In this document: positions 22,372 through 58,845 of the stretch, piece by piece
Layout: each line of letters begins with the position of its first letter
How positions within the stretch are numbered: position 1 is the stretch's first letter
Assembly (NCBI GenBank): GCA_035603075.1
Contig: DATNLC010000032.1
Location: 27,462-91,461 of the forward strand
Direction: 5' to 3'
From: Candidatus Acidiferrales bacterium
GTDB lineage: Bacteria > Acidobacteriota > Terriglobia > Acidiferrales > UBA7541
Length of the DNA stretch: 64,000 nucleotides
Translations under genes and position numbers: made by a program
Notes under the pieces: model-generated
The model's database searches: none
What the model saw: the letters and a program-made list of their open reading frames with translations, nothing else
What the model was told of the DNA's origin: nothing

Positions 22372-23544
22372 ATGGCACAGGTCGGCGTCGGATTCCGCAC
22401 TGTATGGTCCGTGATGCTCGAAATGTCGTTCGAGCTAGTCGAACCGTATATCTATTCGACTACGATTGGTGCCGTCGCCGCGCCCGGTGTCGCGACTATC
22501 ACAGTCAATTCCCTCGGCGTACCCGTCCCGGCCTGCTATCCCGGCGCGCAACTCATTATCGATAGCGGGCTGTCGGAGGAGATCATATCCGTCATATCCT
22601 CCAACTCCAACGTCACCCCACCCACCATCACTGCAATATTTGCGCTCCCGCACGCGGCCAACGTCCCGTTGATCGGTGCCACGTTTCCAACACAAGCGGT
22701 ATCGGGAGATTACTTTTTCTCGCAAGGTGAAATCCTCGGCTATCTGGCGCGCGCGCAGAACGTCATGTTGTCGGATGTCCCTATTGTGTTCGCGCTCAAC
22801 TACCAGACCGTGCAGTACGGCCAGACGCTCCAGCCGTTTCCATGCGATGTGGTCGAATGCCACAGGATCGCATCATCGTATGCGAACGTGGCGCTGTTGT
22901 CGCTCTCCCGGCTCAACAACGTGGTCACTGCGGTCTCGCTGTCCCCGCATGGACTCTCGGTCAACGAGAAATTCGCAGTCCTGTCTGCGCCCGATCCCAA
23001 CTTTGATGGGGCGTTTCGAGTGAGCACGGTGGTGTCTCCGACATCATGGTCATACCCGCAGATCGGGCCGAACGAGTCGATCTCCGGTGGCGGTTATGCA
23101 GGGCTGTGGCTGAGACTGCTGGAGGTATCGCAGGAACAGTTAGCAATGCAGAACCCGCAGTTCGCGCAGACGTTCATCACCAGTTTGCGATCATGGTATG
23201 AAGACCGTAGCGGCATCTACCAGTACGGACTCGGTGGCCGTCCCGCATCCAACTTTCCAGTCGAAGTGTTGTGCTCAGTGCGCGACAGTGACAGCCTCGC
23301 CATGACGGACGGCTTTCTGGTGCCAGATGTAATGCTCCACGCCGTCCGCTGGCTGGCGTTGCATTACTGCCTCGCAAAGGACGGTGAGCAGCGCGACCCA
23401 GCCCGCGCTCAGTATTGCAAGATGCGTTACGATAAGATTGTCATGGCAGTGCGGCGATGGTCTGGTTGGGTCGGCGGTCTCGGTGGGCGAGCAGAGCAGC
23501 AGATGGCGATGGCGGGAGCAGGCGCAGGCAAAGGTAGACGCTGA
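22372..23544 (+). CDS. virion structural protein, paralogue family member 3 (adaptor / tail tubular A candidate)
   Basis: 390 aa, immediately upstream of the 1143-aa protein with overlapping stop/start (TGATG). The C-terminal pattern is VRWLALHYCLAKDGEQRDPARAQYCKMRY. Confidence 0.45.
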   Translation: MAQVGVGFRTVWSVMLEMSFELVEPYIYSTTIGAVAAPGVATITVNSLGVPVPACYPGAQLIIDSGLSEEIISVISSNSNVTPPTITAIFALPHAANVPLIGATFPTQAVSGDYFFSQGEILGYLARAQNVMLSDVPIVFALNYQTVQYGQTLQPFPCDVVECHRIASSYANVALLSLSRLNNVVTAVSLSPHGLSVNEKFAVLSAPDPNFDGAFRVSTVVSPTSWSYPQIGPNESISGGGYAGLWLRLLEVSQEQLAMQNPQFAQTFITSLRSWYEDRSGIYQYGLGGRPASNFPVEVLCSVRDSDSLAMTDGFLVPDVMLHAVRWLALHYCLAKDGEQRDPARAQYCKMRYDKIVMAVRRWSGWVGGLGGRAEQQMAMAGAGAGKGRR

Positions 23545-26500
23545 TGGCTCAGGACACCAAGTACACATCGAAAAGTCTGATTCTACGCAGCAAGGGTCTC
23601 GTTGCTCGTAACGTCCCCGACCAACCCCCAGACATAAGTTACTTCCTGAATATGGATGGTGCCCAAGAACGAGAGGAAAACGCGATCAGTACGAGGTGGG
23701 GCCAGACCATCATCAACCGTTCGCCCGATGGCACTTCCGGGGGCACCAACTATTTCCTCCCCGCCGTTCCCGTCATCCTCTCCCGGCTCCGCTCTCTCAA
23801 TGGCCAGACATACCGCTACGCTGCGCTCGCCGACGGCTCTCTATGGCGTCGGGCAGCCGACACGCAAGGCCCGTACACTCAAATCGCGACTGGACTCTCG
23901 GGTCAAAAGTTTACTGCGCTCACGCAGACATGTTTTGAGACGGCACAACCGTACCTGTTCTGCTATGACCCCCTCAATCCCATCAAGGATTCAGGCACTG
24001 GCACTCCATCCCGTATTGGCATCGTCCCCCCCGTCGTCCCCATCACGGCCCAGCAGTACGCACCGCAGATTGTATTGATAGACAGTTTCCAGTCCACATC
24101 TGGGTATGGCGTCTCCGGCTCCCTCTCCACCGCTGCGACTGTCGCTGGCACCGCTGGCACCCCGCAACTTTCCGGCAACTATGACCAGTACACGGACGCC
24201 ACTCTGTCTTACGCCGCCGCGCCCGACGGGATGATTGGACTGTCCTCCACTCTTGCTGACTCCGCTCTGCGTCTCAAGTTCAACACCAACCGCGCCAACA
24301 ACACTTACGATATTGTTGCCCTCAACAACGCCTACTCTCCCACCGACTCATTCGTATTCAAACAAGTCCTGTTCTCGTTCCCGGCATCCGCAACCACCAA
24401 CATCGGTAAATCGGTATCCCTCAATTTCGGCAACTACCAGTCCGCGGACCTGATCGTGCTGGTGATGAAGGTCTCGGACCCGTCCGCAGTACAGTCGATC
24501 TCGGTGCAGTTCGATGTGAATGCCAGCGGATACGGTGCCACGTATTACACCAAATCCATCATTCCAGTTTCCTACCAGGGCGGGCTCTCCGATCCCCTCG
24601 CCAATGACCCGGCATCGCAAATGGTCAACGAGGTGTTTCAGTTGGCCACGGGAATCGTCAATATCCAGCAACTTGGACAAGCCTCCAACCTCCCCGGCAA
24701 TGACCCGAATCTTCCCATCGTACAGCCATCGCAAATGGCGAGTGGTGGGCCGGGCGATACTGGCGCATGGTCGGTGATCTATATGCAGTTGGGGGATTTC
24801 CTCCCCGTCGGCAACGCCGGCACTCCGGGATGTGATTGGAGCGCTGTGACGGGCTGGCAGGTGCAGGTGACCACAACCTCGGCGGGGGGCACGGATATCG
24901 CGTTCAACGGACTGTACATTCAGGGGTCGCCGACCGCGAATGGTATTGGTACGAACGCGGGCGCGTCTAGTTACGGCGGTATCGGATATGACGCGCGATA
25001 CATTTACTGGAACGCGAACACGGGTACGCCGTCCAACCCGTGCTGGGAGGCGATGTTCTCGATCACTCCCTCCAATCCTGGTGGCTCATCCACGCTCGTC
25101 GTCCTGCGTCAAGCCATCAACATGCAGGGGCAATACTCCGCCGATCCGCAAGTCACCCACGTCCGCATGTACATCCGTGGCGGGCTCTATGGCCAGAACT
25201 GGTACTATGCGGACCAGTTTCCCAACATTACCGGGAATGGGACATTCAACTACAAATACATCCTCCCCGATTCCGCGCTCTCGCAGGGCAATATTCTCAA
25301 CCTGCAAGCCGATGTGCCTGTCACTTCCAATCTCCAGACCCCGATCAACACTACGCTGTCCGCTCCGCTCGCACCACTCCCCGCTGGGACTAACACTCCC
25401 ACTTTGGTCACAGTCACAGTGGCAGGCACACCAGTATTTGTACGGAATCAGATTGTAGTCATCGGTACCCCGCAGAATTTGGAGCAGGCGTTTGTGGTCG
25501 CAGGTGGGACCGGGACGTTCACGTGTTATATATTTTTGCCACATGCCGCTGGCGAACCAGTCCAGGCGTATTCGCAGCCCGCAGTGTCGTGTAATCTAGC
25601 GGCCCAAGGGTATAACCAAACGTGGCTGGCGGGTGATCCGAACAACCCGCATTTCCTGTATTACACTCCGGTTGGATATCCGGAAAATTGCCCTCCACAG
25701 AACTACATCCCCGCGCCGGGCGGGCCGGGAGATCCAATCTCGGCGGTGATCAATTTCCGTGGCACGGTGTTCGTGCGGACATACTCGACGTGGTACCAAG
25801 TGTTTCCCGGATCGCCGCCGTACATGCAGAGCACTGGCAGCAAGCACGGGTCGCCCGCGAGTTTCGACTGGTCGATCACGGAGAGCGCTATCTGGTTTGT
25901 CGGATGGGATGGAATCCGTACATTCCGTGGCAGCGATGGCGACTACATGTCGCTGATTATCGAGTGGCTATTCCGGGATATTGGCCTGCCTCAAACTCCC
26001 GTGCCCGATGTGAATCTCAATCTCCTGTCCAACGTCGTGTCCGCGTTCAAGAACAACACCGTTACCTTCATTTACACAGATATCAACGGGATACAACGCC
26101 GTTTGCGCTACAGCACGAGCTACAAACGGTGGCGGAATGATTCAGTTCCCGCGACCGCGATATTCACCGAGATCGACACCAATAAACTTTTGTATTCGAT
26201 TCCGATCACGGCAGGCAATCAATTCGGCTGGGCGATTGTGTATGAGGACATCACCAAAGATTACGACGACGGTGGGTGGTTGAACGGTGTGTTGGTCCAG
26301 ACCCCGATCAACATTACGCTGGAGACGCCTTACTTAGACCTTGGCACCCCGAATAACCAGAAGGTGTGGCAGAACCCAACCGTAGACGCCAATCCCAACG
26401 GTCAGACCCTTGCCGTCATAATGTTGTTTGACGACAACAACGGAGCGGTCGCGCCTATTACGCTGGGAAACATAACGGGCACCGTCAGGGATAAATTCCA

Positions 26501-26975
26501 GTTCGACATCAACGATGGAGAGGGGATCGAGGCGTACCGGGCGAGTATCGTGATCACCGGTAGCGTGACCGCCGCACCGATCATCTATCAGGCGGATATC
26601 GAAACCGCAGTGCTGCCGGAACAACGTGCAGTGCTGGACAGTTACTGGCATAAGTTTGGGACGGACGAATCTAAACTCATCAAGCAGGGGTACTTCGATT
26701 ACACAGCGTCTCTGCCTGTCGATGTCAATCTCTACGCGGACGGCAGCCCGATCCCGTACTATTCTTTTACTCTTCCCGCCAACCCCACCCGGAGCGAAGT
26801 GCCCGTCCGTGTACGATTTCCCGCTTTGAAACCGCGTCTGTTCCGGTGCATAATGACGAGTACCAGTCCAAATCCGGCGGAGAACGACTTGCAGGTGTGG
26901 AGCGCGATCCAAATCGATCAAAAGCCTATCTGCATCGGCAAGGGCTACACGAGATCGGAGTTGTCGTCGTCGTAA
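23544..26975 (+). CDS. large tail protein (nozzle / tail tubular B-like candidate)
   Basis: 1143 aa. It sits after an adaptor-like gene and before the fibre and ejection genes. The N-terminus (SLILRSKGLVARNVPDQPPDISYFLNMDG...RWG) recalls podovirus nozzle N-termini. Confidence 0.4.
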   Translation: MAQDTKYTSKSLILRSKGLVARNVPDQPPDISYFLNMDGAQEREENAISTRWGQTIINRSPDGTSGGTNYFLPAVPVILSRLRSLNGQTYRYAALADGSLWRRAADTQGPYTQIATGLSGQKFTALTQTCFETAQPYLFCYDPLNPIKDSGTGTPSRIGIVPPVVPITAQQYAPQIVLIDSFQSTSGYGVSGSLSTAATVAGTAGTPQLSGNYDQYTDATLSYAAAPDGMIGLSSTLADSALRLKFNTNRANNTYDIVALNNAYSPTDSFVFKQVLFSFPASATTNIGKSVSLNFGNYQSADLIVLVMKVSDPSAVQSISVQFDVNASGYGATYYTKSIIPVSYQGGLSDPLANDPASQMVNEVFQLATGIVNIQQLGQASNLPGNDPNLPIVQPSQMASGGPGDTGAWSVIYMQLGDFLPVGNAGTPGCDWSAVTGWQVQVTTTSAGGTDIAFNGLYIQGSPTANGIGTNAGASSYGGIGYDARYIYWNANTGTPSNPCWEAMFSITPSNPGGSSTLVVLRQAINMQGQYSADPQVTHVRMYIRGGLYGQNWYYADQFPNITGNGTFNYKYILPDSALSQGNILNLQADVPVTSNLQTPINTTLSAPLAPLPAGTNTPTLVTVTVAGTPVFVRNQIVVIGTPQNLEQAFVVAGGTGTFTCYIFLPHAAGEPVQAYSQPAVSCNLAAQGYNQTWLAGDPNNPHFLYYTPVGYPENCPPQNYIPAPGGPGDPISAVINFRGTVFVRTYSTWYQVFPGSPPYMQSTGSKHGSPASFDWSITESAIWFVGWDGIRTFRGSDGDYMSLIIEWLFRDIGLPQTPVPDVNLNLLSNVVSAFKNNTVTFIYTDINGIQRRLRYSTSYKRWRNDSVPATAIFTEIDTNKLLYSIPITAGNQFGWAIVYEDITKDYDDGGWLNGVLVQTPINITLETPYLDLGTPNNQKVWQNPTVDANPNGQTLAVIMLFDDNNGAVAPITLGNITGTVRDKFQFDINDGEGIEAYRASIVITGSVTAAPIIYQADIETAVLPEQRAVLDSYWHKFGTDESKLIKQGYFDYTASLPVDVNLYADGSPIPYYSFTLPANPTRSEVPVRVRFPALKPRLFRCIMTSTSPNPAENDLQVWSAIQIDQKPICIGKGYTRSELSSS

Positions 26976-28401: not shown

Positions 28402-28721
28402 TGGCCGAGACTGTAATAGAGATAAAATCCATGTCACGTAACGGAGTCACCGGGCACATCGAAGTGGATGTGTGTGTGGTTGAGATCGCAGACGACAAGA
28501 CCGAGACACGGGGCGTACCCGAAACGGAAGGGATTGACCCGTTGGCGTTGGCGAAACGCTATCACTATCACAAGGACAAAACGGCAGATGGATCGGTCGA
28601 GGATGCTCAGGTACATATCCAGAGGTGGCTGGCGGAAGTGAAAGAGCGGATGGTACAGCGGCACAAGGCCCGGACTGCCGCCGTGGGGGAGTTGCAATCG
28701 CTGGTAGGGAAACGCCTCTAA
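28401..28721 (+). CDS. hypothetical protein
   Basis: 106 aa. ATG overlaps the previous TGA (TGATG), with AAGGAG upstream. Confidence 0.45.
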   Translation: MAETVIEIKSMSRNGVTGHIEVDVCVVEIADDKTETRGVPETEGIDPLALAKRYHYHKDKTADGSVEDAQVHIQRWLAEVKERMVQRHKARTAAVGELQSLVGKRL

Positions 28722-28730
28722 AAATAGCTC

Positions 28731-28759
28731 TTGAAATTGTCTGACACTTGTATTACATT
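28731..28759 (+). promoter_or_regulatory. sigma70-like promoter for the RHH gene, probably giving a leaderless transcript
   Basis: TTGAAA (28731-28736), a 17-nt spacer, then TACATT (28754-28759). ATG 28767 is 7 nt downstream of the -10 box, and no SD is present. Confidence 0.4.
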
Positions 28760-28766
28760 TCCTCTC

Positions 28767-28925
28767 ATGGCGATCCGCCGTAAGGACCCCAAGAAAATGA
28801 TCTCCGTTCGGCTGGAACGGAGTCTCCTTGCGAGGGTGGAAAGATATGCACGCCAGTTGGGATATGGCAGGTCGGCGGCCATCCGGCGGATCGTTCAATT
28901 GTGGTCGAAAGGGACTATCGCATAA
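28767..28925 (+). CDS. ribbon-helix-helix (CopG/Arc-type) DNA-binding protein
   Basis: Reads MAIRRKDPKKMISVRLERSLLARVERYARQLGYGRSAAIRRIV, which fits a beta-strand/helix/helix RHH pattern. 52 aa. Confidence 0.6.
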   Translation: MAIRRKDPKKMISVRLERSLLARVERYARQLGYGRSAAIRRIVQLWSKGTIA

Positions 28926-29224
28926 TGTCTCCCACTGAAGAAGATATCTCTACCGCTGCCCAATCCGTCGTCTCCTACACTATCGCGATCACGCCCAACA
29001 TGGCGGCGACCGAGTTGGCGAGTGAGTTGCGTAAAATCCGCGACCTCCTCAACCGTGCGTATCGGAACGCGCTACTCGAAGACAAAATGAACATTGCTCA
29101 TCCCGCGATGCAGGGGTTGATGGCGGCGACGGTGAATGTAGAGGGGTCGGCGAATGCGGTCGATCCGCCTAGAGTACTCGGAGCCGTGGATGACAGAGTG
29201 GTGAGAGGGATGGGGAGGGCGTGA
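28925..29224 (+). CDS. hypothetical helical protein coupled to the RHH gene
   Basis: 99 aa. TAATG overlap with the RHH stop. Confidence 0.45.
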   Translation: MSPTEEDISTAAQSVVSYTIAITPNMAATELASELRKIRDLLNRAYRNALLEDKMNIAHPAMQGLMAATVNVEGSANAVDPPRVLGAVDDRVVRGMGRA

Positions 29225-29382
29225 TGGGATTTGGAATTCCGCTAGCGACGCACGAATACACCAGACCAGAGCAATCGACGCCTATGTGTCCAACTACCGG
29301 AGTCCCATGCAGTCAATGCGAGTGCGGCGGAGTCGGATGCGGTGAATCGGCAGAGTCGAAAAAGGGCGATGACACCAAATGA
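29224..29382 (+). CDS. 52-aa Cys-rich peptide
   Basis: TGATG overlap at 29222-29226. Reads MGFGIPLATHEYTRPEQSTPMCPTTGVPCSQCECGGVGCGESAESKKGDDTK. Not in the ORF track because it is under 60 aa. Confidence 0.4.
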   Translation: MGFGIPLATHEYTRPEQSTPMCPTTGVPCSQCECGGVGCGESAESKKGDDTK

Positions 29383-29726
29383 GTATCTCTTTCGATCTCC
29401 CCAATCGGCCACTGTCCTTCTTCGCCTTCCACGCCTTGTACCGCGAGTGGTCGTACATGATCGCCAGTTGGTCTGTCTGTCTCGCCATCCTGACCGCGTT
29501 CTTCCACCTCGCCGCATGCTACATATTCGCGTCATCCGTAATTCTGTCGTTGTGCTTTATCGGGCTACTGACTTTGTTCTACGAACTTTCTCAGCACACG
29601 CCATCTTCCTATACCGAATGGCGGAGATTCCTTATCGTCATGCTAGGGTATTGGTCAATTATCACATTCGCCGCCGGGCTGGTTGTTGGCTCATACCAGT
29701 TTTGCAATCGAGGTCTTCCGCAATGA
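29379..29726 (+). CDS. small integral membrane protein (about 3 TM)
   Basis: 115 aa with ATGA overlaps at both ends. Hydrophobic stretches include MIASWSVCLAILTAFFHLAA, IFASSVILSLCFIGLLTLFY and FLIVMLGYWSIITFAAGLVVG. Confidence 0.55.
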   Translation: MSISFDLPNRPLSFFAFHALYREWSYMIASWSVCLAILTAFFHLAACYIFASSVILSLCFIGLLTLFYELSQHTPSSYTEWRRFLIVMLGYWSIITFAAGLVVGSYQFCNRGLPQ

Positions 29727-30049
29727 CCACCACCAATTTCTCCCACGCTCTCCCCGACACACTGACCCGCGAACAGATCGAGACCTCGGTCATCGTCATG
29801 GTGAGCGAGCAGTCCGGCCTGCCAGTCACGCTCACGACCGATCTCAGACAGATCAAACTGGATTCGCTCGATTACGTGTCATTGGCCTCGTGGATGGAGT
29901 CGGAGTTCAATCTCCCGCCGATATCGGATGTCGACCTGTTTCGGTTTCAAGTCGTGTCACAGTTGGTCGACTACGTGGTCGCAGCCAAAGCAGAGTTGGC
30001 GAAAGCGGCGGAGTCGAGAGTAAGACAGGAAGCGGAGCAAACGGTGTGA
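29723..30049 (+). CDS. acyl carrier protein-like (phosphopantetheine carrier) protein
   Basis: 108 aa. SEQSGLPVTLTTDLRQIKLDSLDYVSLASWMESEFNLPPISDVDL...QLVDYV aligns by eye with E. coli AcpP ([41 protein letters not shown]..AIDYI), including the DSL serine. Confidence 0.7.
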   Translation: MTTTNFSHALPDTLTREQIETSVIVMVSEQSGLPVTLTTDLRQIKLDSLDYVSLASWMESEFNLPPISDVDLFRFQVVSQLVDYVVAAKAELAKAAESRVRQEAEQTV

Positions 30050-30050
30050 T

Positions 30051-30248
30051 ATGGGAGTCGTCCCCGGACCATACGACGTTCACGGCTGGCACGCTTTCAG
30101 GAGTGGCTGGCAGGGTGAGTCTTGGTGCGCGGAATGCGACTGCTTGGGATCTCGGCACGTATCCGAACAGGAATATGAATCTCGTAAAGCGGAATTTGAA
30201 GCGGATGCCAAGCGTTTTAACCGAATGTGCGAAGAAGAGGAGATATGA
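30051..30248 (+). CDS. small hypothetical protein (WCAECDC motif, acidic C-terminus)
   Basis: 65 aa, starting 1 nt after the ACP stop. Confidence 0.4.
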   Translation: MGVVPGPYDVHGWHAFRSGWQGESWCAECDCLGSRHVSEQEYESRKAEFEADAKRFNRMCEEEEI

Positions 30249-30249
30249 G

Positions 30250-30618
30250 ATGAATCGCAGACTGTTTCTGGGCAAGGGCGTGATGGGGATGGTGGGGGCG
30301 ATCGCGGCGGCAATAGCAGTACCATTTACGAAGAATGAGCGCTCGTTCCAAGAGGAAGCTGCCGCCAAGGCGGTGGAAGAAATAACGTTCGAGCGGCGGG
30401 TGCGGGCGGCAATGCAGCGTGCGGATTGGGACGCTCTCGATCCCAAATCTCCGGGTGCATTCATCCGCAAGAGTAACAATGTCGCAGGCGATTTGGAGTT
30501 CACGCGCAAAGCGGATTTCCCGTACAAAGATTCTGTTAAGGGTTTGAAGGAGTTGCATATCCGTTTGGATCGATTGGCGCGCGCACTCCGGGCCAATGCC
30601 GTAGAGGATATTACCTAG
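30250..30618 (+). CDS. Tat-signal protein carrying a portal-like segment
   Basis: The N-terminus MNRRLFLGKGVMGMVGAIAAAIAVP fits a twin-arginine RRxFL motif plus an h-region. Residues RADWDALDPKSPGAFIRKSNNVAGDLEFTRKADFPY parallel the portal segment KADWDALDPGAAGGKIATNNNAPGKLEFAKRAEFPF. Confidence 0.55.
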   Translation: MNRRLFLGKGVMGMVGAIAAAIAVPFTKNERSFQEEAAAKAVEEITFERRVRAAMQRADWDALDPKSPGAFIRKSNNVAGDLEFTRKADFPYKDSVKGLKELHIRLDRLARALRANAVEDIT

Positions 30619-31329
30619 GTGAGCGATTCCATCCTCTCTGTATTCGCCGCCGACGATTGGCGTATGGGCGACCTCCAAATAGTCCCCTATGACCGCCGCC
30701 GCGTTGACATCTTCGGCACCGGATACCTGCTTCATTTGTACAACGAATGTCTCCTGTCCCGCCCGACCGACCCATACGGCATCCTCAGCGACGTATTCTG
30801 CGGAATGACCGACCTGTCCGCCGATGCGATCTGCTCTTATCTCGCCAACAAACCTATCAGTCTCCTCTGCGTCCACACCTCCGCTACCGAATTCACTCCC
30901 GCTGGATTCTGCTGGCCAACGGAAGTGATACGAGCGCAATCGACCAGCTCGGCATTCTGTGCGTTCGCATTTTTCCGCAACTGGTGGGGAACTCCCGAAT
31001 GCACCGTACTCGGAATGCTGGGTATCGCCTACCTGTTCGAGAGTTTGGTATTGACCGCCATCCACGGGCAACGGTACGCTACTAACGAGCCTGCCGCACG
31101 GTGGATGCGGCAATTCGGAGCCAAGGATATCGGGGTGGTCCCATATCTGTTACGCTCCCACGACGGCGGACTCGAAGCGTGTACGGTATCGACACTGTTA
31201 CGGGCGGATTTTGAAGCGTACACTCGCAAACAGTTAATCACACTCGCGGGAGCGGCGGTCACGAATGGGCAAGTCGGGGAACAATCTCAACGACGTGAAC
31301 CCGCAAGTCCAGCAATCCCTTCTGTCTAA
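30619..31329 (+). CDS. GNAT-fold-like (acyl/acetyltransferase-like) protein, tentative
   Basis: 236 aa with a GTG start next to the previous TAG. The C-terminal half (AFCAFAFFRNWWGTPECTVLGMLGIAYLFESLVLTAIHGQRYATNEPAARWMRQFGAKDIGVVP) resembles a GNAT core ending in N..A.r....GF. It overlaps the next gene by 65 nt. Confidence 0.35.
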   Translation: MSDSILSVFAADDWRMGDLQIVPYDRRRVDIFGTGYLLHLYNECLLSRPTDPYGILSDVFCGMTDLSADAICSYLANKPISLLCVHTSATEFTPAGFCWPTEVIRAQSTSSAFCAFAFFRNWWGTPECTVLGMLGIAYLFESLVLTAIHGQRYATNEPAARWMRQFGAKDIGVVPYLLRSHDGGLEACTVSTLLRADFEAYTRKQLITLAGAAVTNGQVGEQSQRREPASPAIPSV

Positions 31330-31879
31330 TTCCACGGCACTCACAAATATAGCTTCCCAGCAGAGTCAGAATGCCGAGCAACTCTACAATCTGACGGAGC
31401 CGGGGCTGGTGACCGCAGAGGACCAGTACCAAAAATTGGCATCCGGCGATCCTGCCGCGATCATGCAGGCCATTGCTCCAGCGGCACAACAGACAGCCCA
31501 AGCCACTGCTGGTGCCCGCGCTAATATCATGGCGAATGATCCATCTGGCGGCGAGAAGAACCTTGCACTGGAGCAAACCGACGTTAACCGCGGCGCGCAG
31601 ATATCCAGTGCGGCATCGGGGGCTACTCTCAATGCTCCGAACGCACTGGGTCAACTCGCTAGCCAAGGGATCAGTGAATCTACGGCAGCGACCAATTCTG
31701 GTATCAGTGGGCTGTCCAACGCCAATCAGGGGATATCGTCGTTGCAGGGGTTGGAATACCAAGGGGAGCAAATCTCCGCTCAGGAAAAAGGATCGACGCT
31801 CGGCGCGTTAGGGAGTCTGGCCGGCGCAGGTGCAAGCGCGTATGGATCGTATGCGGCGTTGGCGTTGTTAGCGGCATAA
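31265..31879 (+). CDS. internal virion / ejection protein candidate (small)
   Basis: 204 aa, Gln/Asn/Ala/Ser-rich with a hydrophobic C-terminus (LGALGSLAGAGASAYGSYAALALLAA). It is the first of three genes in the position of podovirus core proteins. Confidence 0.45.
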   Translation: MGKSGNNLNDVNPQVQQSLLSNSTALTNIASQQSQNAEQLYNLTEPGLVTAEDQYQKLASGDPAAIMQAIAPAAQQTAQATAGARANIMANDPSGGEKNLALEQTDVNRGAQISSAASGATLNAPNALGQLASQGISESTAATNSGISGLSNANQGISSLQGLEYQGEQISAQEKGSTLGALGSLAGAGASAYGSYAALALLAA

Positions 31880-31900: not shown

Positions 31901-33625
31901 ATGTCCACATCTCCCGCCACTCCCGACTACTCTCCAACCAGTAAAACGCCGTACCGCGCGCCGGAAACTCCTCCGCTCCCCGAGATCGCCGCGCCGCCCG
32001 CCCATGCCGACATGCAACAACCAGCCGCTCCGTCGATGGTCGGCGGCAAGACCAAAGGGATAGCGGTTATTGCCACCCTCGCCGACTCGATTCTTCGCGG
32101 CGCGGTGCGCGGGCGGGATTACGCCAACCAGGTCAAGGCCCAAAAACAGCAGCGGATGGCACAGGGGCTGAACTACAACTATCAAACGGCGCGCAACAAC
32201 TATCTCGGCATGCTCAAGTCGGGTGCCGATCCCAACTCCAAACAAGTCCAGGAAGCCAAGAACGCCGCCGACGCCGCATGGGAGATCCAGCAGCAGTTCT
32301 ACCAGAATATGTTCGGGCAGGATCAGGGCAAAAAGGGAAAGAGCAAGAAGTCGTCATCCAACTCCAGTTCCCAGAGCGGAAGTGATCCACAATCTCAACA
32401 GCCGAATCCGATGGCGATGTGGGCGTCCGGTGATCCCGTGCAGAGATTGCAGGCGGCGATGATTATCAGGCAGAAGGCGGGGCCGGATTACCAGGGAGAG
32501 GCGGCGCAATATACGAGTCCACAGTACCGTCGCCAGATAGAACTGATGCGCGGTGAGCAGCGCGTCGAGGGAGATATCCAGCAGAAGCGGATCGACCTGC
32601 ATGATCTCCAGGGTATGGACCCGGCGAAACTGACTCCCGATCAGGAGTCGAAACTGGAGCGGTTGCGGACTGACCCCGAGTTGTTCCCGCAGATGGCGAA
32701 GGGGGACAAAAAGATCAGCCAGTATGTCGGGCAGGACGGCAAGGAGCACTTGATCTGGCAAAAGCCGGATGGAGAAACGTACGAGTCATTGGGTACGGGT
32801 GATGTTCGCAAGCCCGTGTCGGAGACCAAGCCGATACGTGCATGGTCTAAAGACACTCACGGCAAGCCATTCAGTGTCGAAGTCGATCCCAAGACTAACC
32901 AGATAATTCCCGGCACGGAGAACCATGATCTCGTGCCGCCGAGCGATACCAAACAGATATTCGACACCGTGCGTACAGGCGAGTTCAGTTGGAAAGACGA
33001 ACAAGGGCAATTGCACCGGACGCAGACATCTACGACGACCGAACACGTGCCGAGGGGCACAGCAGGTGGAGCAGCACACGCTGCGCCATCGGGATCGGGG
33101 TCAGCGTCCGGTGGCGGTGGCATTCCCCCTTCCACTCCCGGTGACCGCATTATTGGATCGACTGGCCCAACCGGGCAGACTAAATCCCGCGCTGACGCCG
33201 CCGACTCGGTGATGAAACTATTGCCTCAAGTCCGCGACCTGATAAAAGACCCGCAGGTACGCGAGCAACTCGGCGCTCTTCCCGGCAGGTGGTCGGAGGT
33301 GGAAGCCAAACTGGGCACACTCGATCCTAAGACCAGAGAACTACTGGGCGCGCTCAAATCCGTATACTCTCTCGCGGGCGCGATGCACGGCTGGCGAAGC
33401 GTAAAAGTAGCCGATGAATTCGAGAAAGCCTACGGTGGGCTGCATACCGATCCGGATTCGCTGCTTGCGGGCATGGATGCGATGGAGAAGACGGCGAAGG
33501 CCGTGTATGAGACCGGATACAAGCATCCAGACAAGAGTGCGGGCGGAGGAGACGGTAAGTCCAATGCTCCGTTGCCGTCTGAACTAAAAAATAAACTGGA
33601 TACCGATTTTGGTCCCGCAAAGTAG
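31901..33625 (+). CDS. internal virion / ejection protein candidate (medium)
   Basis: 574 aa. Pro-rich N-terminus, Gln/Lys-rich helical middle, Ser-rich and Gly-rich low-complexity tracts. Confidence 0.45.
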   Translation: MSTSPATPDYSPTSKTPYRAPETPPLPEIAAPPAHADMQQPAAPSMVGGKTKGIAVIATLADSILRGAVRGRDYANQVKAQKQQRMAQGLNYNYQTARNNYLGMLKSGADPNSKQVQEAKNAADAAWEIQQQFYQNMFGQDQGKKGKSKKSSSNSSSQSGSDPQSQQPNPMAMWASGDPVQRLQAAMIIRQKAGPDYQGEAAQYTSPQYRRQIELMRGEQRVEGDIQQKRIDLHDLQGMDPAKLTPDQESKLERLRTDPELFPQMAKGDKKISQYVGQDGKEHLIWQKPDGETYESLGTGDVRKPVSETKPIRAWSKDTHGKPFSVEVDPKTNQIIPGTENHDLVPPSDTKQIFDTVRTGEFSWKDEQGQLHRTQTSTTTEHVPRGTAGGAAHAAPSGSGSASGGGGIPPSTPGDRIIGSTGPTGQTKSRADAADSVMKLLPQVRDLIKDPQVREQLGALPGRWSEVEAKLGTLDPKTRELLGALKSVYSLAGAMHGWRSVKVADEFEKAYGGLHTDPDSLLAGMDAMEKTAKAVYETGYKHPDKSAGGGDGKSNAPLPSELKNKLDTDFGPAK

Positions 33626-33637: not shown

Positions 33638-35779
33638 ATGGCTGACTCGAATGCAGCGTCCGCTCCCGCCGCTCCCGCCACTACCGCTGTCGATCCAGCC
33701 GTAGCCTCCGCAACCTCCCCATCCAAACTAACTATTCCGCAATTCGCGTCTGAAATCCGCAAGCGCAAGCCGGGATACGATGGATTGGCTGACGATGTGC
33801 TTGTCCGCGAGGTTCTCGCCCGCCGTCCCGACTACACACAATACATCCAGACCGCTGAACCGCGTCCGCGACTCAAGAATAATCGTGAACCGTCATTCGA
33901 TCAGCGCACACAGAAGTTCTTTGAAAACCACCCAAAGATCAGGGAAGCGGCACTCGGTGCGGCATCGGGGTTGGGCATACCGGAGTCCCTGCATCCAGTC
34001 GCCGATATGGCGAAAGGGTTCGTTCACACTGTCGCCGATGCCCCGCAAACTACAGATGAGCAGGCGCTGGTGTCACATGATCCGAACGCGCGTATCCTGC
34101 TCCCCGCGTACCGCATGGTTAAGGGGATTATTCAACAGACCTACGGATATGGTCAGGAGGCGTTTGACTCTATCGACTGGGGGAAGATGAAATTCAAGCC
34201 CGGCGATGAAGGTGCCCCCAAGACCGCGCATGCGCTGGCCGGGCTGGCGACTGAGATCGTGTCCATGATCGCGGGTGGAAAGAAAGTTCCCGAAGCGGGA
34301 GAGGCGGCGGTACATGCCGGAGGGACAGCGGCAAAGGTGGTCACAGAGGGTCCGACTGTCACCGCGCAGCGTATGGCGGGGACGGGACCGAGACTGGCCA
34401 CAAAAGTCGCAGAAGGGGTAGTCGAGGAATCCGATAAAGCCGCAGCCGGAGCGGCCAAAGCCAAGACTGAGTTCACCGATAAATTGTCTGAGCACCGCGC
34501 TGGAAAAGTGGAAGCATCGCGGATTGAAACTCAACACGAAGGGTTGAAGCGGGCGCAAGCGGCTGCTGCCGAGAAGGCAATCGAGAACGCCAAGTCTACT
34601 CACAAAGCGGTGAGGTCGGCGCTGGATCAGCGGTGGAATGGACTGCGAGAAAAAGTAGGAGTAGACGCTCCGGTAGAAGCACCTCCACTATACAGCGCGG
34701 TCGAGAGCGGGAGGGCAATGCTTGCCGGCGTTCCCGCCGACCTCAAGATATTCAATGACATCGTAAAAGAAGTTACCGAAAAGGGGGAAAAGGTAGAAAA
34801 CGAGCGTGGTGAACTACAGGGTGTTCCGAAGCAGTCCATCCCGTTTGACGATGCACGGACTCAGTATTCCGTGATCGGCGAGAAAGCTTACGCCGCAGAT
34901 GGGATCGTTCGCAAGGCGCTGTTTCAGTTGTACGACGCATACGATAAAGCGTTGAACGTCACTGCCAACAAAGCGGGTGCGGGTGCGGACTATACCGCCC
35001 TCAAGCGCGACTGGAAATCCTATATGCAGGACTGGCACGATATGAGCGGGCAGGCGACGGGCGGGAGTCCGCTGGCGAGATTGTACCGGGCCAATCCAAC
35101 GGATGTAGATGTAGCGAAGGGAATCGCATCCGGTAAGTTTGGGAATCGTTTACTACAAACTATGGGCAAGTACCGCAAATTCGGAGCCGACCCGGAACTG
35201 GCACAGTCCATGCGAAAGTACGTGGCGGTTGAGAAGGCGTTGCCGAATAAAGTCAAGGTACCGCCAAAGCCTGAATACACGTCGCCGGGTCCGGTACGTC
35301 CACCGAACCTTGAGGACATCATTCAGAAGACGAAGGAAGCCAAAATCGAGCAAGCGAAGGAAGCCAAGGATAAATCTCTAACGTTATCTAATCGCGATGC
35401 CGTGCTTGGCGGACTTTCGGCTGCTGGTGTATTCGGTTTGCACAACATATCTTGGGCGCTCCCCTATATGGTAGCCCGCGTTGGAGAAGCTGTATTGGTC
35501 AGTTCCGAAATGGGTCAGCGGTGGCTGTCACGGATTACGCCACAGGACATAGCCGCGATCAACGAGGTACTAGCCAAAGCCCCGGACAAGCGTGTGCCCG
35601 TCCAGAATGCAATCACGCAAGGACTGGTCGAGAAAGCGCGCAAGGGAGAAAAGTTGCCACCGTTAAATACTTTCTCGGGGCTGTTGTCACGGGCGCAAAT
35701 GGGTGCGATATTGAAAGTGGCGGCACCGCCAGCGGTACCAGCGGGACAACAACAGCAGCCGCCGCAACAAGTTCAGTAG
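33638..35779 (+). CDS. internal virion / ejection protein candidate (large)
   Basis: 713 aa, Ala/Lys/Glu-rich and helical. Has a hydrophobic segment near the C-terminus (LGGLSAAGVFGLHNISWALPYMVARV) and a poly-Q tail. Confidence 0.45.
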   Translation: MADSNAASAPAAPATTAVDPAVASATSPSKLTIPQFASEIRKRKPGYDGLADDVLVREVLARRPDYTQYIQTAEPRPRLKNNREPSFDQRTQKFFENHPKIREAALGAASGLGIPESLHPVADMAKGFVHTVADAPQTTDEQALVSHDPNARILLPAYRMVKGIIQQTYGYGQEAFDSIDWGKMKFKPGDEGAPKTAHALAGLATEIVSMIAGGKKVPEAGEAAVHAGGTAAKVVTEGPTVTAQRMAGTGPRLATKVAEGVVEESDKAAAGAAKAKTEFTDKLSEHRAGKVEASRIETQHEGLKRAQAAAAEKAIENAKSTHKAVRSALDQRWNGLREKVGVDAPVEAPPLYSAVESGRAMLAGVPADLKIFNDIVKEVTEKGEKVENERGELQGVPKQSIPFDDARTQYSVIGEKAYAADGIVRKALFQLYDAYDKALNVTANKAGAGADYTALKRDWKSYMQDWHDMSGQATGGSPLARLYRANPTDVDVAKGIASGKFGNRLLQTMGKYRKFGADPELAQSMRKYVAVEKALPNKVKVPPKPEYTSPGPVRPPNLEDIIQKTKEAKIEQAKEAKDKSLTLSNRDAVLGGLSAAGVFGLHNISWALPYMVARVGEAVLVSSEMGQRWLSRITPQDIAAINEVLAKAPDKRVPVQNAITQGLVEKARKGEKLPPLNTFSGLLSRAQMGAILKVAAPPAVPAGQQQQPPQQVQ

Positions 35780-35837: not shown

Positions 35838-36158
35838 ATGGCGGTCAAACTGGATGCTGTGGGCGTCTATGCTTCCCCTACACAGAATGTAAACAAGAAG
35901 CAGCCTAATTTTATGATCGTCGATCTCAACGGCATCTACGTCGAACACTCACTCGTTGCGGTGATCAGGGAATCGTCTCTCGACTCCGATCAGACCGTGA
36001 TTTTCACGCCGGGGCAGTCTGCTATTGATGGCGGTCACCTGATCGACATGCCCGTTGAAGAAGTGATCGAGGCGTTGAACGCTTCCCACATGCAGGCCAT
36101 CGCAGAACGGTTGCTGGAGGACGCCGAAGCGGAACGGTTATCGGCTGCTCAAAGTTGA
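35838..36158 (+). CDS. hypothetical protein
   Basis: 106-aa ORF after a hairpin-containing spacer. It overlaps the convergent minus-strand gene by 10 nt. Confidence 0.45.
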   Translation: MAVKLDAVGVYASPTQNVNKKQPNFMIVDLNGIYVEHSLVAVIRESSLDSDQTVIFTPGQSAIDGGHLIDMPVEEVIEALNASHMQAIAERLLEDAEAERLSAAQS

Positions 36159-46403: not shown

Positions 46404-46417
46404 TACAGTGGATCGTA

Positions 46418-53005: not shown

Positions 53006-53060
53006 GAGATTGTTGACGCGGGTGGTACGATATCAGTGAAAGGAAAGGACCCCTCCGATA

Positions 53061-53765: not shown

Positions 53766-53777
53766 CAGGAGTCGTTT

Positions 53778-55473: not shown

Positions 55474-55521
55474 CGAGCCGGCAATACGCTGTCCGGATTA
55501 TGGAAAATGTAATAAAATTCG

Positions 55522-55549: not shown

Positions 55550-55562
55550 AGGAGCGCTGTGA

Positions 55563-56401: not shown

Positions 56402-56416
56402 AAGGAGCTTCGTTGA

Positions 56417-58838: not shown

Positions 58839-58845
58839 GCCAACC

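What the first reader, a model, noticed from the sequence alone, without database searches (positions are those of the whole stretch)
29224..31329. Phage-borne acyl-carrier-protein-like gene in a coupled small-ORF cassette with a GNAT-like gene, immediately upstream of the ejection-protein genes
29723-30049 encodes a 108-aa protein that aligns by eye over its whole length with acyl carrier proteins, including the DSL serine that normally carries 4'-phosphopantetheine. The phage protein reads SEQSGLPVTLTTDLRQIKLDSLDYVSLASWMESEFNLPPISDVDL..QLVDYV. E. coli AcpP reads [41 protein letters not shown]..AIDYI. The gene sits in a chain of ORFs joined by overlapping or abutting stop/start codons (TGATG 29222-29226, ATGA 29379-29382, ATGA 29723-29726, then gaps of 0-1 nt). 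The chain holds a 52-aa Cys-rich peptide, a 3-TM membrane protein, the ACP-like protein, a 65-aa ORF, a Tat-signal protein and a 236-aa protein whose C-terminal half resembles a GNAT acyltransferase core. Directly downstream are three low-complexity proteins in the position of podovirus internal-core/ejection proteins. A carrier protein inside a virion module suggests a tethered acyl group being transferred to a virion or ejection protein, or to the host envelope. This would be loosely analogous to acyl-ACP-dependent lysine acylation of RTX toxins. I do not know of a described phage system like this; the functional link is inference.
Basis: partly seen in the sequence, partly recalled or inferred. 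Interest (0 to 1): 0.78.

Follow-up and report, generated by a model that had tools for sequence, protein, structure and literature searches.

The report
Phage carrier protein beside gp13-type acyltransferase
A soil podovirus carries a genuine acyl-carrier-protein gene just upstream of the GNAT-fold "internal virion protein A"-type gene that precedes its DNA-ejection proteins, and related phages keep this pairing, which hints that this long-enigmatic assembly protein is a real acyltransferase fed by a carrier protein.

Summary
ORF 29723-30049 is a real acyl carrier protein. It scores 33.7 bits on Pfam PP-binding (cut-off 20.8), models as a four-helix ACP, and keeps the LDSL serine in all 21 related clusters. 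ORF 30619-31329 is a GNAT fold over its whole length (pLDDT 87.6; Foldseek E 2e-9), not only its C-terminal half. It links by profile to Pfam Acetyltransf_3.

The ACP sits zero or one gene upstream of the GNAT in 14 distinct phage loci. Every ACP of this subfamily with readable context is followed by the GNAT.

A GNAT-like gene in front of podovirus ejection genes is already described. It is the "internal virion protein A" slot (T7 gp13, P22 gp14; Hardies 2016), whose biochemistry is unknown. Four related loci have the GNAT without the ACP. The 65-aa and 122-aa ORFs are strain-specific inserts.

Two further points emerged. The next gene, in the IVP-B position, keeps an N-terminal M-G-(G)-K/P-G/S across all loci. 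The GNAT's CoA-pyrophosphate loop is non-canonical (W-G-T-P-E).

Best reading, still inferred: the phage ACP supplies or partners an acyl transfer by the IVP-A-type GNAT onto an ejection protein. This is a new variant of a known kind.

The parts
23544..26975 (+). 1143-aa tail protein in the 'tubular tail B / nozzle' position (cluster C3). It marks the upstream border of the internal-virion-protein module.
   Evidence: It follows the SU10-adaptor-like genes 20927-22033 and 22372-23544. A ~1140-aa homologue is conserved in all related loci. It has no Pfam hit, so the role is assigned by position only.
28901..29224 (+). 107-aa conserved small protein (cluster C4) of unknown role. It is translationally coupled to the next ORF.
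   Evidence: Homologues are present in 13 of the 17 loci compared. The stop/start overlap TGATG lies at 29222-29226. No family hit.
29224..29382 (+). 52-aa Cys-rich ORF (cluster C13), found only in close relatives.
   Evidence: Homologues only in L021 and L014, which are 92-95 % identical relatives. No family hit.
29379..29726 (+). 115-aa membrane protein with three hydrophobic segments (cluster C6). It is the conserved neighbour upstream of the ACP and GNAT.
   Evidence: Homologues sit directly upstream of the ACP, or of the GNAT where the ACP is absent, in about 12 loci. Conserved motifs are YE(M/F)D, YE and NYT..RY. No significant family hit.
29723..30049 (+). 108-aa acyl carrier protein (cluster C8). 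Ser48 in the invariant L-D-S-L motif is the predicted 4'-phosphopantetheine site. A ~20-residue helical C-terminal extension follows the ACP core.
   Evidence: Pfam PP-binding 33.7 bits, above the 20.8 cut-off. PDB ACP hits. AF2 pLDDT 80.4 with helix II starting at Ser48. Foldseek top 50 are all carrier proteins. LDSL is invariant in 21 cluster representatives. pI 4.4.
30051..30248 (+). 65-aa ORF, strain-specific filler between ACP and GNAT.
   Evidence: No homologue in any related locus. Window 30043-30619 has no blastn counterpart in L021 or L014. No family hit.
30250..30618 (+). 122-aa ORF with an N-terminal MNRRLFLGK plus hydrophobic stretch (looks like a Tat or signal anchor). It is a strain-specific insert.
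   Evidence: Same evidence as for the 65-aa ORF. The twin-arginine motif was read from the sequence. No family hit. No signal-peptide predictor was available.
30619..31329 (+). 236-aa GNAT-fold acyltransferase-like protein (cluster C0) in the IVP-A (T7 gp13 / P22 gp14) position. The core is residues 1-215. The tail 216-236 is disordered and overlaps the next gene.
   Evidence: AF2 pLDDT 87.6 with GNAT topology. Foldseek PDB E=2e-9. BFVD hits include a DUF2824 protein and 'Internal virion protein A'. The family profile reaches Acetyltransf_3 proteins. There are 24 invariant residues, many of them polar.
31265..31879 (+). 204-aa protein in the IVP-B (first ejection protein) position (cluster C1). 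It has a conserved N-terminal M-G-K-S/G and a Gly/Ala-rich hydrophobic C-terminus. It is the candidate acyl acceptor.
   Evidence: Conserved in all loci directly after the GNAT. M1 and G2 are invariant and K3 and G4 nearly invariant, while the next ~10 residues vary. Distant loci start MGGPS. hhalign against T7 gp14 is not significant, E=0.24.
31901..33625 (+). 574-aa low-complexity protein in the IVP-C (second ejection protein) position (cluster C7).
   Evidence: Conserved synteny and size of 574-743 aa in relatives. Its size class matches P22/epsilon15-type ejection proteins listed in PMC8954989. No family hit.
33638..35779 (+). 713-aa protein in the IVP-D (third ejection protein) position (cluster C10).
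   Evidence: Conserved synteny and size of 713-918 aa. The size class is as in PMC8954989. No family hit.

Best explanation
The 236-aa protein is this podovirus's version of the IVP-A-type (T7 gp13 / P22 gp14-like) GNAT-fold morphogenesis factor. It is encoded between the tail-tube/nozzle gene and the three ejection-protein genes.

In this phage clade a dedicated, FAS-type acyl carrier protein is encoded zero or one gene upstream and is co-expressed with it in the late operon.

Proposed mechanism:
1. The host AcpS-type transferase puts 4'-phosphopantetheine on Ser48 of the phage ACP.
2. Host enzymes (the fatty-acid synthase, or an acyl-ACP synthetase) load an acyl group onto it.
3. The GNAT takes the acyl group from the acyl-ACP thioester and N-acylates a virion component during assembly.
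4. The most likely acceptor is the conserved N-terminal Gly2 or Lys3 (M-G-K-G/S) of the IVP-B-position protein encoded immediately downstream. This would prepare that protein for its envelope-inserting role at ejection.

Shown here: the ACP identity and its conserved serine; the GNAT fold and its homology to Acetyltransf_3; the conserved synteny and co-divergence of ACP and GNAT; the conserved N-terminus of the downstream protein; and the non-canonical CoA-pyrophosphate loop.

Inferred: phosphopantetheinylation, the loading step, the direction of transfer, the nature of the acyl group and the acceptor.
For: ACP:
- It is a true ACP.
- It forms a distinct subfamily of about 20 clusters (E 1e-26 to 1e-39), separated by a gap from generic ACPs (next hit 1e-13).
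- L-D-S-L is invariant in the subfamily, which argues for a modified, working carrier rather than a relic.

GNAT:
- The 236-aa protein has the full GNAT fold.
- Its profile finds a second tier of phage proteins, of which 34 of 40 are Pfam Acetyltransf_3. hhalign between the two tiers gives E=2e-37.
- It has 24 invariant and 36 nearly invariant positions, many polar or Cys (D12, Y24, D25, C61, D69, Y74, E127, Y138, S191, D197). This looks like an enzyme rather than a scaffold.

Linkage:
- The ACP lies 0-1 genes upstream of the GNAT in 14 distinct loci: window, L021, L014, L001, L022, L023, L002, L005, L015, L006, L012, L019, L026 and L027. The stop and start often overlap.
- The two loci reached from the ACP side (L026, L027) also carry the GNAT.
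- Pairwise ACP and GNAT identities correlate (r=0.63, Mantel p about 2e-4).

Donor site:
- Aligned through the tier-2 profile to SpeG, the canonical Q-x-x-G-x-A pyrophosphate loop (QGKGLA) corresponds to W123-G124-T125-P126-E127-x.
- Pro replaces the key Gly. This fits a donor that lacks the ADP-pyrophosphate moiety.

Acceptor:
- The downstream protein keeps M-G-(G)-K/P-G/S at its N-terminus in all 15 loci examined, while the following residues vary.
- Its start overlaps the disordered GNAT tail and imposes the only conserved motif there, N-G-Q.
- The best structural relatives include N-terminal protein acetyltransferases (RimJ, and RimL-like proteins).

Position: the gene sits where T7 IVP-A and its P22/epsilon15 homologues sit. 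Those are acetyltransferase-like, non-structural and required for morphogenesis (PMC4819975).
Against: - The GNAT occurs without any nearby ACP in L007 (57 % identity), L003/L004 (38 %), L018 (43 %) and the distant L024 and L029. All keep the same W-G-x-x-E loop and the same MG... N-terminus downstream. The phage ACP is therefore dispensable for the class.
- The slot around the ACP is a hot spot for insertions. It holds the 65-aa and 122-aa ORFs here and an IS1595/RelA_SpoT/Trypsin_2 block in L021. Linkage could partly reflect a permissive site.
- No phosphopantetheinyl transferase, acyl-ACP synthetase or FAS gene was detected among the window ORFs scanned with Pfam. The proposal depends wholly on host enzymes.
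- None of the known acyl-ACP-dependent GNAT-like families (HlyC/TAAT, LuxI, FeeM) matched in the Pfam scan of the 236-aa protein at E<=1, and none appears among the top 50 structural hits. The closest solved structures are acetyl-CoA enzymes.
- Conservation of the first four codons of the downstream gene could reflect translation initiation rather than modification.
Confidence: 0.4

Rival explanations
1. The ACP and GNAT are functionally independent. The GNAT (IVP-A type) uses acetyl-CoA or another acyl-CoA, or host acyl-ACP, as in its ACP-less relatives. The phage ACP is an accessory gene (an auxiliary metabolic or host-takeover gene) that landed in a permissive slot of the late operon. It acts on host lipid or fatty-acid metabolism, or on an unknown target.
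For: - ACP genes of unknown role are already annotated in unrelated phages (PHROG 5934 'moron, auxiliary metabolic gene'; Erythrobacter phage R6L, PMC5463345).
- The GNAT is present without the ACP in L007, L003, L018, L024 and L029.
- The same intergenic slot accepts unrelated inserts.
- The closest solved structures are acetyl-CoA-dependent GNATs.
Against: - This ACP subfamily was seen only in this gene neighbourhood.
- It is always within one gene of the GNAT, across GNAT identities of 42-95 %.
- Its divergence is correlated with that of the GNAT.
- A free-floating moron would not be expected to keep one address over that divergence.
- The GNAT lacks the canonical pyrophosphate-binding Gly.
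Confidence: 0.3
2. Non-catalytic roles. The GNAT-fold protein is a scaffold or chaperone for loading ejection proteins, as Pfam labels T7 gp13 ('probable scaffold protein'). The acidic ACP-fold protein is a co-chaperone or assembly factor. It might act the way acyl-ACP stabilises LYR-motif assembly factors in mitochondria, or simply as an acidic partner of the ejection proteins.
For: - T7 IVP-A is required for morphogenesis but not retained in virions (PMC4819975), and Pfam calls it a probable scaffold protein.
- The best sequence matches of the ACP in the PDB are the ACP subunits of mitochondrial complex I.
- No catalytic activity has been reported for any IVP-A in the papers searched.
Against: - The invariant LDSL serine and the many invariant polar and Cys residues of the GNAT are hard to explain without chemistry.
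- The tier-2 relatives pass Pfam GNAT thresholds.
Confidence: 0.15
3. Reverse direction. The GNAT loads the carrier. It transfers acetyl or another acyl group from CoA onto holo-ACP, as the GNAT loading domain does for the ACP of the curacin CurA module. The acyl-ACP then serves another enzyme, from host or phage, for example in modifying the envelope with the help of the conserved upstream membrane protein.
For: - GNAT-plus-ACP loading pairs exist in polyketide initiation (established knowledge of CurA GNAT_L-ACP_L). The CurA ACP appears among the structural hits of the phage ACP (rank 22).
- A conserved small membrane protein (29379-29726) always precedes the pair.
Against: - No ketosynthase, MBOAT or other downstream acyl-ACP-using enzyme was detected in the window.
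- The GNAT is conserved without the ACP in several relatives, so the ACP cannot be its obligatory substrate.
- The membrane protein has no enzyme-like family match.
Confidence: 0.08

Closest known systems
Internal virion protein A class of podoviruses (T7 gp13, Pfam PF11090 / phrog_308; P22 gp14, DUF2824 / phrog_651; the 'acetyltransferase family' gene of phiRIO-1-like phages; Hardies et al. 2016, PMC4819975)
   Same: - It holds the same place in the genome, between the tail-tube B/nozzle gene and the first ejection-protein gene, followed by three ejection-type proteins of matching size classes.
- It has the same fold class: acetyltransferase-like by HHpred in the literature, GNAT by AF2 and Foldseek here.
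- BFVD structural hits include a DUF2824 protein (E=6.6e-6) and proteins named 'Internal virion protein A' (E=1.1e-4 and 6.2e-4).
   Different: - There is no sequence-level membership. It has no PF11090, DUF2824, phrog_308 or phrog_651 hit, and hhalign against T7 gp13 and P22 gp14 gives E 0.07-0.7.
- It is larger, a complete 215-residue GNAT core against 138-151 aa.
- In this clade it is preceded by a dedicated ACP and a small membrane protein. The papers found do not report this for T7, P22, epsilon15 or phiRIO-1-type modules.
Acetyltransf_3 / RimJ-RimL-type GNATs (PA3270, TTHA1799, RimJ, SpeG)
   Same: - These are the best structural matches (E 2e-9 to 1e-6, TM up to 0.74 normalised to the target).
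- The family is linked by profile through tier-2 phage proteins that pass Pfam Acetyltransf_3.
- Motif B (N-x-x-A-x-x-F-x-x-x-G-F) is conserved.
   Different: - The 236-aa protein itself has no direct Pfam hit.
- The Q/R-x-x-G-x-G/A pyrophosphate loop is replaced by W-G-T-P-E-x.
- It sits in a virion-assembly context.
- It has many conserved cysteines.
Acyl-ACP-dependent GNAT-like acyltransferases with a dedicated carrier (RTX toxin-activating acyltransferases HlyC/CyaC/ApxC; N-acyl amino acid synthase FeeM with ACP FeeL; LuxI-type synthases)
   Same: - The logic would be the same: a GNAT-like fold takes an acyl chain from an ACP thioester and N-acylates an amine. In RTX toxins that amine is a Lys next to a Gly.
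- Gene adjacency of carrier and transferase resembles feeL/feeM.
- These comparisons rest on established knowledge of those systems.
   Different: - No sequence or profile similarity was detected (no Pfam hit at E<=1).
- None is among the top 50 structural hits.
- The acyl donor here is untested.
Phage-encoded acyl carrier proteins annotated as auxiliary metabolic genes (PHROG 5934; e.g. Erythrobacter phage vB_EliS-R6L ORF32)
   Same: It is a small acidic PP-binding protein encoded by a phage and of unknown function. It gives a weak PHROG 5934 hit (E=8e-4). PMC5463345 states that the function of phage ACPs remains unclear.
   Different: - Here the ACP forms its own subfamily.
- It has a fixed address in the virion/ejection module next to a GNAT.
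- No GenBank phage matches it by tblastn.

Membership tests
Acyl carrier protein / PP-binding (PF00550) | Profile match above the curated threshold | tested here: met
   33.7 bits against a gathering cut-off of 20.8, E=4.5e-8. The homologues in L001, L002 and L005 also pass, and L006 scores exactly at the cut-off, 20.8 bits.
Acyl carrier protein / PP-binding (PF00550) | Conserved D-S-L serine at the N-terminus of helix II (the phosphopantetheine attachment site) | tested here: met
   L46-D47-S48-L49 is invariant in 21 cluster representatives. Helix II starts at residue 48 in the model. The motif aligns with the ACP LDSLD.
Acyl carrier protein / PP-binding (PF00550) | Four-helix ACP fold, acidic protein | tested here: met
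   AF2 pLDDT 80.4 with helices 16-31, 48-61, 69-74 and 78-106. All top 50 Foldseek hits are carrier proteins, with TM up to 0.82 normalised to the target and rmsd 1.4-2.5 A for most. pI 4.2-4.7 in 10 homologues.
Acyl carrier protein / PP-binding (PF00550) | Actual 4'-phosphopantetheinylation and acyl loading | not testable with these tools
   This needs mass spectrometry. No PPTase or loading enzyme was found in the window.
GNAT superfamily (Acetyltransf_3-like) | GNAT fold topology (beta1-alpha1-alpha2-beta2-4-alpha3-beta5-alpha4-beta6-7) | tested here: met
   The AF2 secondary-structure order matches. There are 375 PDB matches at E<=1e-3, and the top ones are all GNATs.
GNAT superfamily (Acetyltransf_3-like) | Sequence-profile membership | tested here: inconclusive
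   There is no direct Pfam hit at E<=1. The link is transitive: the family profile reaches tier-2 proteins at E 1e-22 to 1e-9, of which 34 of 40 hit Acetyltransf_3. hhalign between tiers gives E=2e-37, and the tier-2 profile hits SpeG at E=2.6e-9.
GNAT superfamily (Acetyltransf_3-like) | Q/R-x-x-G-x-G/A acetyl-CoA pyrophosphate-binding loop between beta4 and alpha3 | tested here: not met
   The corresponding residues are W123-G124-T125-P126-E127-x. Pro is invariant at the position of the motif Gly.
GNAT superfamily (Acetyltransf_3-like) | Acyl-transfer activity and identity of the donor | not testable with these tools
   No biochemical data.
Podovirus internal virion protein A (T7 gp13 / P22 gp14 class) | Gene position between the tail-tube B/nozzle gene and IVP-B, ahead of three ejection-protein genes | tested here: met
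   The synteny is nozzle (1143 aa) ... GNAT - 204 - 574 - 713 aa. It is conserved in all loci long enough to show these genes. The position is defined in PMC4819975.
Podovirus internal virion protein A (T7 gp13 / P22 gp14 class) | Sequence membership in PF11090 / phrog_308 or DUF2824 / phrog_651 | tested here: not met
   No such hits. hhalign against T7 gp13 gives E=0.2-0.7 and against P22 gp14 E=0.07-0.34.
Podovirus internal virion protein A (T7 gp13 / P22 gp14 class) | Acetyltransferase-like fold shared with IVP-A proteins | tested here: met
   BFVD hits: DUF2824 protein of Aeromonas phage 4_4572, E=6.6e-6; 'Internal virion protein A' of Vibrio phage N4, E=1.1e-4; and of Podoviridae sp. ctiVc2, E=6.2e-4. 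The literature reports that T7 IVP-A matches acetyltransferases.
Podovirus internal virion protein A (T7 gp13 / P22 gp14 class) | Required for morphogenesis or infectivity but absent from mature virions | not testable with these tools
   This needs genetics and virion proteomics.
Acyl-ACP-dependent GNAT-like acyltransferases (HlyC/TAAT, LuxI, FeeM) | Sequence or structural similarity to a family member | tested here: not met
   No Pfam hit at E<=1. None is in the top 50 Foldseek PDB hits; lower ranks were not visible.
Acyl-ACP-dependent GNAT-like acyltransferases (HlyC/TAAT, LuxI, FeeM) | Use of acyl-ACP as donor | not testable with these tools
   Only indirect evidence: conserved adjacency to a dedicated ACP and a degenerate CoA loop.
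T7-type ejection protein IVP-B (gp14) | Sequence homology to T7 gp14 | tested here: not met
   hhalign of the 11-sequence alignment A8 against T7 gp14 gives E=0.24. The assignment rests on position and size only.

The most novel reading that the evidence does not exclude
The phage makes its own holo-acyl-ACP pool. The IVP-A-type GNAT uses it to attach a fatty acyl chain to the N-terminal Gly or Lys (G-K-G) of the first ejection protein. The result would be a lipidated protein packed in the capsid that anchors or inserts into the host outer membrane at the start of DNA ejection. This would give the first enzymatic function for the T7 gp13 / P22 gp14 class and the first case of carrier-protein-dependent lipidation of a phage virion protein.
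Probability: 0.15. Interest if true: 0.85.

Novelty: new variant of a known kind. Interest (0 to 1): 0.6.

Why it matters
The IVP-A genes of podoviruses (T7 gene 13, P22 gene 14) have been known for decades to be needed for infectious particles. They are not retained in the virion, and in the papers I could search no biochemical activity was described for them.

A clade in which this GNAT-fold protein is tightly and durably linked to a dedicated acyl carrier protein gives a concrete, testable hypothesis: IVP-A is an acyltransferase that modifies an ejection protein. It also names a candidate acceptor site, the conserved MGKG N-terminus of the next gene.

If this is right, protein acylation would become a step in podovirus virion maturation. 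It would also give phage-encoded ACPs a function; they are currently filed as auxiliary metabolic genes of unclear role.

If it is wrong, the finding is still a clean annotation. It defines a new phage ACP subfamily and a large, complete-GNAT version of IVP-A in uncultivated phages known only from metagenomes.

Tried and rejected
- **ACP-GNAT complex model.** No interface model exists.
- **Natural ACP-GNAT fusions.** Longer family members (P0036, P0041-43, P0057, P0067) are fused to an unknown ~160-aa domain, not to an ACP. That domain has no Pfam hit and no counterpart in the window or the neighbouring genes.
- **GenBank phages.** tblastn with the GNAT, a tier-2 GNAT and the ACP gave no match. 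The terminase only finds relatives at about 25 % identity. There is no cultured relative.
- **Host assignment.** The genome-collection scan found one 1.7-kb fragment in a Chloroflexi MAG. That is too short to trust.
- **Direct homology to T7 gp13, T7 gp14 and P22 gp14.** hhalign against single sequences was not significant.
- **Widening the tier-2 sample.** Two alignments were too divergent for the locus finder. Two single-protein scans found nothing. One subset alignment gave L029.
- **Carrier-loading genes.** A search for PPTase, acyl-ACP synthetase and FAS genes among the window ORFs found none. The replication half of the genome lies outside the window.
- **GNAT isoelectric point.** It gave no informative signal of an ACP-binding basic surface (pI 5.3-8.4).
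- **Literature.** Searches for phage ACPs, acylated ejection proteins, DUF2824 and IVP-A acetyltransferases found nothing beyond Hardies 2016 and generic mentions.

Full report
**1. Setting**

The window is a phage genome segment packed with + strand ORFs. It has no tRNA genes.
- Large terminase: 563-2821 (PHROG).
- SU10-type portal: 4528-6402.
- SU10-type adaptor domains: 20927-22033 and 22372-23544.

It is therefore a podovirus-like structural module. The nearest cultured phages share only about 25 % terminase identity.

**2. The observation**

ORF 29723-30049 is a bona fide acyl carrier protein:
- Pfam PP-binding scores 33.7 bits against a cut-off of 20.8.
- A weak PHROG 'acyl carrier protein' hit and several sub-threshold NCBIfam ACP models agree.
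- phmmer against the PDB returns only carrier proteins among the 60 chains listed, with LDSLD aligned to the attachment motif.
- The AlphaFold model (21-sequence alignment, pLDDT 80.4) has the four ACP helices, with Ser48 at the start of helix II.
- Its 50 best Foldseek PDB matches are all carrier proteins, mostly type II FAS ACPs. TM reaches 0.82 normalised to the target, with rmsd about 1.5-2.5 A for most.
- The protein is acidic, pI 4.4.
- A profile search finds about 20 clusters of a distinct subfamily (E 1e-26 to 1e-39), then a gap to generic ACPs at 1e-13. L-D-S-L is invariant across the subfamily.

ORF 30619-31329 has no Pfam hit. Only faint GNAT signals appear at the sequence level: phrog_4470 at E=0.14 and PDB 2z0z at E=2.
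- It has 24 metagenomic homologues.
- With these the AlphaFold model is confident (pLDDT 87.6, pTM 0.81) and has the complete GNAT topology.
- Foldseek matches PA3270-type, TTHA1799, RimJ and SpeG GNATs at E down to 2e-9.
- An exhaustive profile search finds 185 relatives. Below the core family lies a second tier of 190-230-aa proteins.
- Of 40 second-tier proteins, 34 hit Pfam Acetyltransf_3. The two tiers align at E=2e-37. The tier-2 profile hits SpeG at E=2.6e-9.
- The protein is therefore a GNAT over its whole length.

**3. Co-occurrence**

I collected loci through exact-protein look-ups and pattern scans. I then searched them with HMMs of the ACP and GNAT families.

| Group | Loci |
|---|---|
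| ACP 0-1 genes upstream of the GNAT (14 distinct loci) | window, L021, L014, L001, L022, L023, L002, L005, L015, L006, L012, L019, L026, L027 |
| GNAT without an ACP | L007, L003/L004, L018, and the tier-2 loci L024 and L029 |

- In the first group the stop and start codons often overlap.
- L019 carries a truncated-looking ACP.
This is an inference only.
- Both ACP-side look-ups (L026, L027) found the GNAT downstream.
- ACP and GNAT pairwise identities correlate (r=0.63, Mantel p about 2e-4). The pair has therefore been inherited together.
- The GNAT-only loci are documented.

Clustering of neighbours gives this conserved order:

nozzle-size protein (~1140 aa) - ~140 aa - ~330 aa - ~97 aa - (C12) - ~100 aa (window 28901-29224) - small membrane protein (29379-29726) - ACP - (optional ~103-aa ORF) - GNAT - ~200 aa - ~620 aa - ~800-900 aa.

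- The 52-aa Cys-rich ORF occurs only in near-identical relatives.
- The 65-aa and 122-aa ORFs are unique to this phage. Window 30043-30619 has no counterpart in L021 or L014, although the flanks are 92-95 % identical.

**4. What is already known**

Hardies et al. (PMC4819975) described this gene position. [quoted passage not shown] Epsilon15 and P22 have homologues in the syntenic position, and most phiRIO-1-like phages have an acetyltransferase-family gene there.
- The position holds a small non-structural gene that matches acetyltransferases by HHpred.
- T7 'internal virion protein A' (gp13) is one of these.
- It is required for morphogenesis but is not kept in the virion.

My GNAT model supports the same fold class. 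The BFVD library returns a DUF2824 protein at E=6.6e-6; I recall DUF2824 as the Pfam family of P22 gp14, but this was not checked here. It also returns two proteins named 'Internal virion protein A', at E=1.1e-4 and 6.2e-4.

Sequence-level membership is not met:
- T7 gp13 is PF11090 / phrog_308 and P22 gp14 is phrog_651.
- The present family hits neither.
- hhalign against the single sequences is insignificant.

The three downstream proteins (204, 574 and 713 aa) match the size classes of P22/epsilon15-type ejection proteins (PMC8954989). They show no significant similarity to T7 gp14. The 'GNAT before the ejection genes' is thus a known arrangement. The ACP and the small membrane protein in front of it were not reported in any paper I could find.

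**5. Clues to mechanism**

*(a) The GNAT looks like an enzyme.* It has 24 invariant and 36 nearly invariant positions down to 38 % identity. These include D12, Y24, D25, C61, D69, Y74, E127, Y138, N156, S191 and D197.

*(b) The donor loop is unusual.* Through the tier-2/SpeG alignment, the canonical loop Q-G-K-G-L-A corresponds to W123-G124-T125-P126-E127-x. An invariant proline sits where the motif glycine offers its backbone NH to the CoA pyrophosphate.
- This fits a donor without an ADP-pyrophosphate group, such as acyl-phosphopantetheinyl-ACP.
- However, the same loop occurs in the ACP-less relatives.

*(c) The gene after the GNAT starts with a conserved N-terminus.* The start is M-G-K-G/S, M-G-G-K-G, M-G-G-S-S-K-G, M-S-G-K-G or, in tier 2, M-G-G-P-S. 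This holds in all 15 loci examined. One of them, L026, reads I-G-K-G with no standard start codon at that position.
- The next ~10 residues vary.
- This start overlaps the disordered GNAT tail. It explains the only conserved motif there, N-G-Q, which is the other reading frame of ATGGGCAAG.
- After methionine removal the protein would expose Gly-Lys. That is a plausible site for N-alpha or N-epsilon acylation by a RimJ/RimL-like enzyme.

*(d) No loading machinery is visible.* No PPTase, acyl-ACP synthetase or FAS gene is detected in the window. Loading would depend on host enzymes. This is plausible because the ACP resembles FAS-type ACPs.

**6. Interpretation**

The best-supported reading (confidence about 0.4) has three parts:
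1. The phage ACP is the dedicated partner, most likely the acyl donor, of the IVP-A-type GNAT.
2. The GNAT acylates a virion component during assembly.
3. The N-terminus of the IVP-B-position protein is the leading candidate acceptor.

The main rival (about 0.3) is that the ACP is an independent accessory gene in a permissive slot and the GNAT uses acyl-CoA. The ACP-less relatives and the insertion-prone neighbourhood support that rival. The fixed address and co-divergence of the ACP oppose it. Non-catalytic roles (about 0.15) and reverse loading of the ACP by the GNAT (about 0.08) are less likely.

**7. Verdict**

- The ACP, the GNAT and their linkage are real.
- The GNAT-before-ejection-genes arrangement is a known kind.
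- The small ORFs in the 'cassette' are mostly incidental.
- Acyl transfer remains inferred.

I rate this a new variant of a known kind. It is of moderate to high interest because it makes the old question of what IVP-A does directly testable.

Noticed in passing
window 30043-30619: The 577-nt segment holding the 65-aa ORF and the 122-aa ORF (N-terminus MNRRLFLGK, Tat-like) has no counterpart in L021 or L014, although the flanks are 92-95 % identical. L021 has a different 194-nt segment with an unrelated 65-aa ORF. The gap between ACP and GNAT is a variable insertion slot.
   Followed up: partly
L021 1034-5062 (relative of window 28715-28922): A ~4-kb insert on the opposite strand carries Trypsin_2, RelA_SpoT and IS1595-type transposase genes inside the tail/IVP module of a phage that is 95 % identical here. 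It may be a mobile element bringing an alarmone synthetase and a protease.
   Followed up: no
L019 321-2099: In this divergent relative the GNAT ORF continues into an HNH_3 + AP2 homing-endonuclease-like C-terminus (453 aa in total). The upstream ACP-like ORF seems truncated after helix II. This could be decay of the pair or an assembly artefact.
   Followed up: partly
proteins P0036, P0043 (N-terminal) and P0041, P0042, P0057, P0067 (C-terminal): Some GNAT family members are fused, in either order, to an unknown ~160-aa domain (motifs EESRxTIxAQ, GxGxYxFxP, GxHxxLLGH). The domain has no Pfam hit and no counterpart in the window. It may be another functional partner of the GNAT.
   Followed up: partly
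window 31265-31329 (overlap of the GNAT 3' end and the 204-aa gene start): This stretch is dual-coding. The conserved MGK(G) start of the downstream gene is read as N-G-Q in the GNAT frame. That is the only conserved motif in the otherwise disordered GNAT tail.
   Followed up: yes
window 29379-29726: A small three-segment membrane protein with conserved YE(M/F)D, YE and NYT..RY motifs precedes the ACP/GNAT in about 12 loci, including some that lack the ACP. Its function is unknown. It could belong to the same process.
   Followed up: partly
window 39060-46403 and 46217-53005: Two giant ORFs of 2447 and 2262 aa follow the ejection module. The first has no Pfam hit. The second has one Ig-like ASH/HYDIN-type domain. 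They are probably fibre or host-interaction proteins.
   Followed up: no
window 53000-64000 and 36757-36981: Small-gene region with a Tlde1 (L,D-transpeptidase-like) domain protein at 57899-58270, a He_PIG Ig domain at 53061-53471 and a weak LapA domain at 55563-56231. A KTSC domain hit probably belongs to 36757-36981. That assignment is inferred from the sequence and from a KTSC gene at the matching position in L007. Somewhere among the 55 ORFs scanned together there are also a Tad2-like (Thoeris anti-defence) domain and DUF6527, zinc-ribbon, DnaJ-CXXCXGXG and RHH domains. The individual ORFs for these were not pinned down.
   Followed up: partly
window 36149-36733 (minus strand): This 194-aa ORF is the only sizeable minus-strand ORF lying between + strand genes (between the ejection module and the 701-aa gene). 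It was not examined.
   Followed up: no
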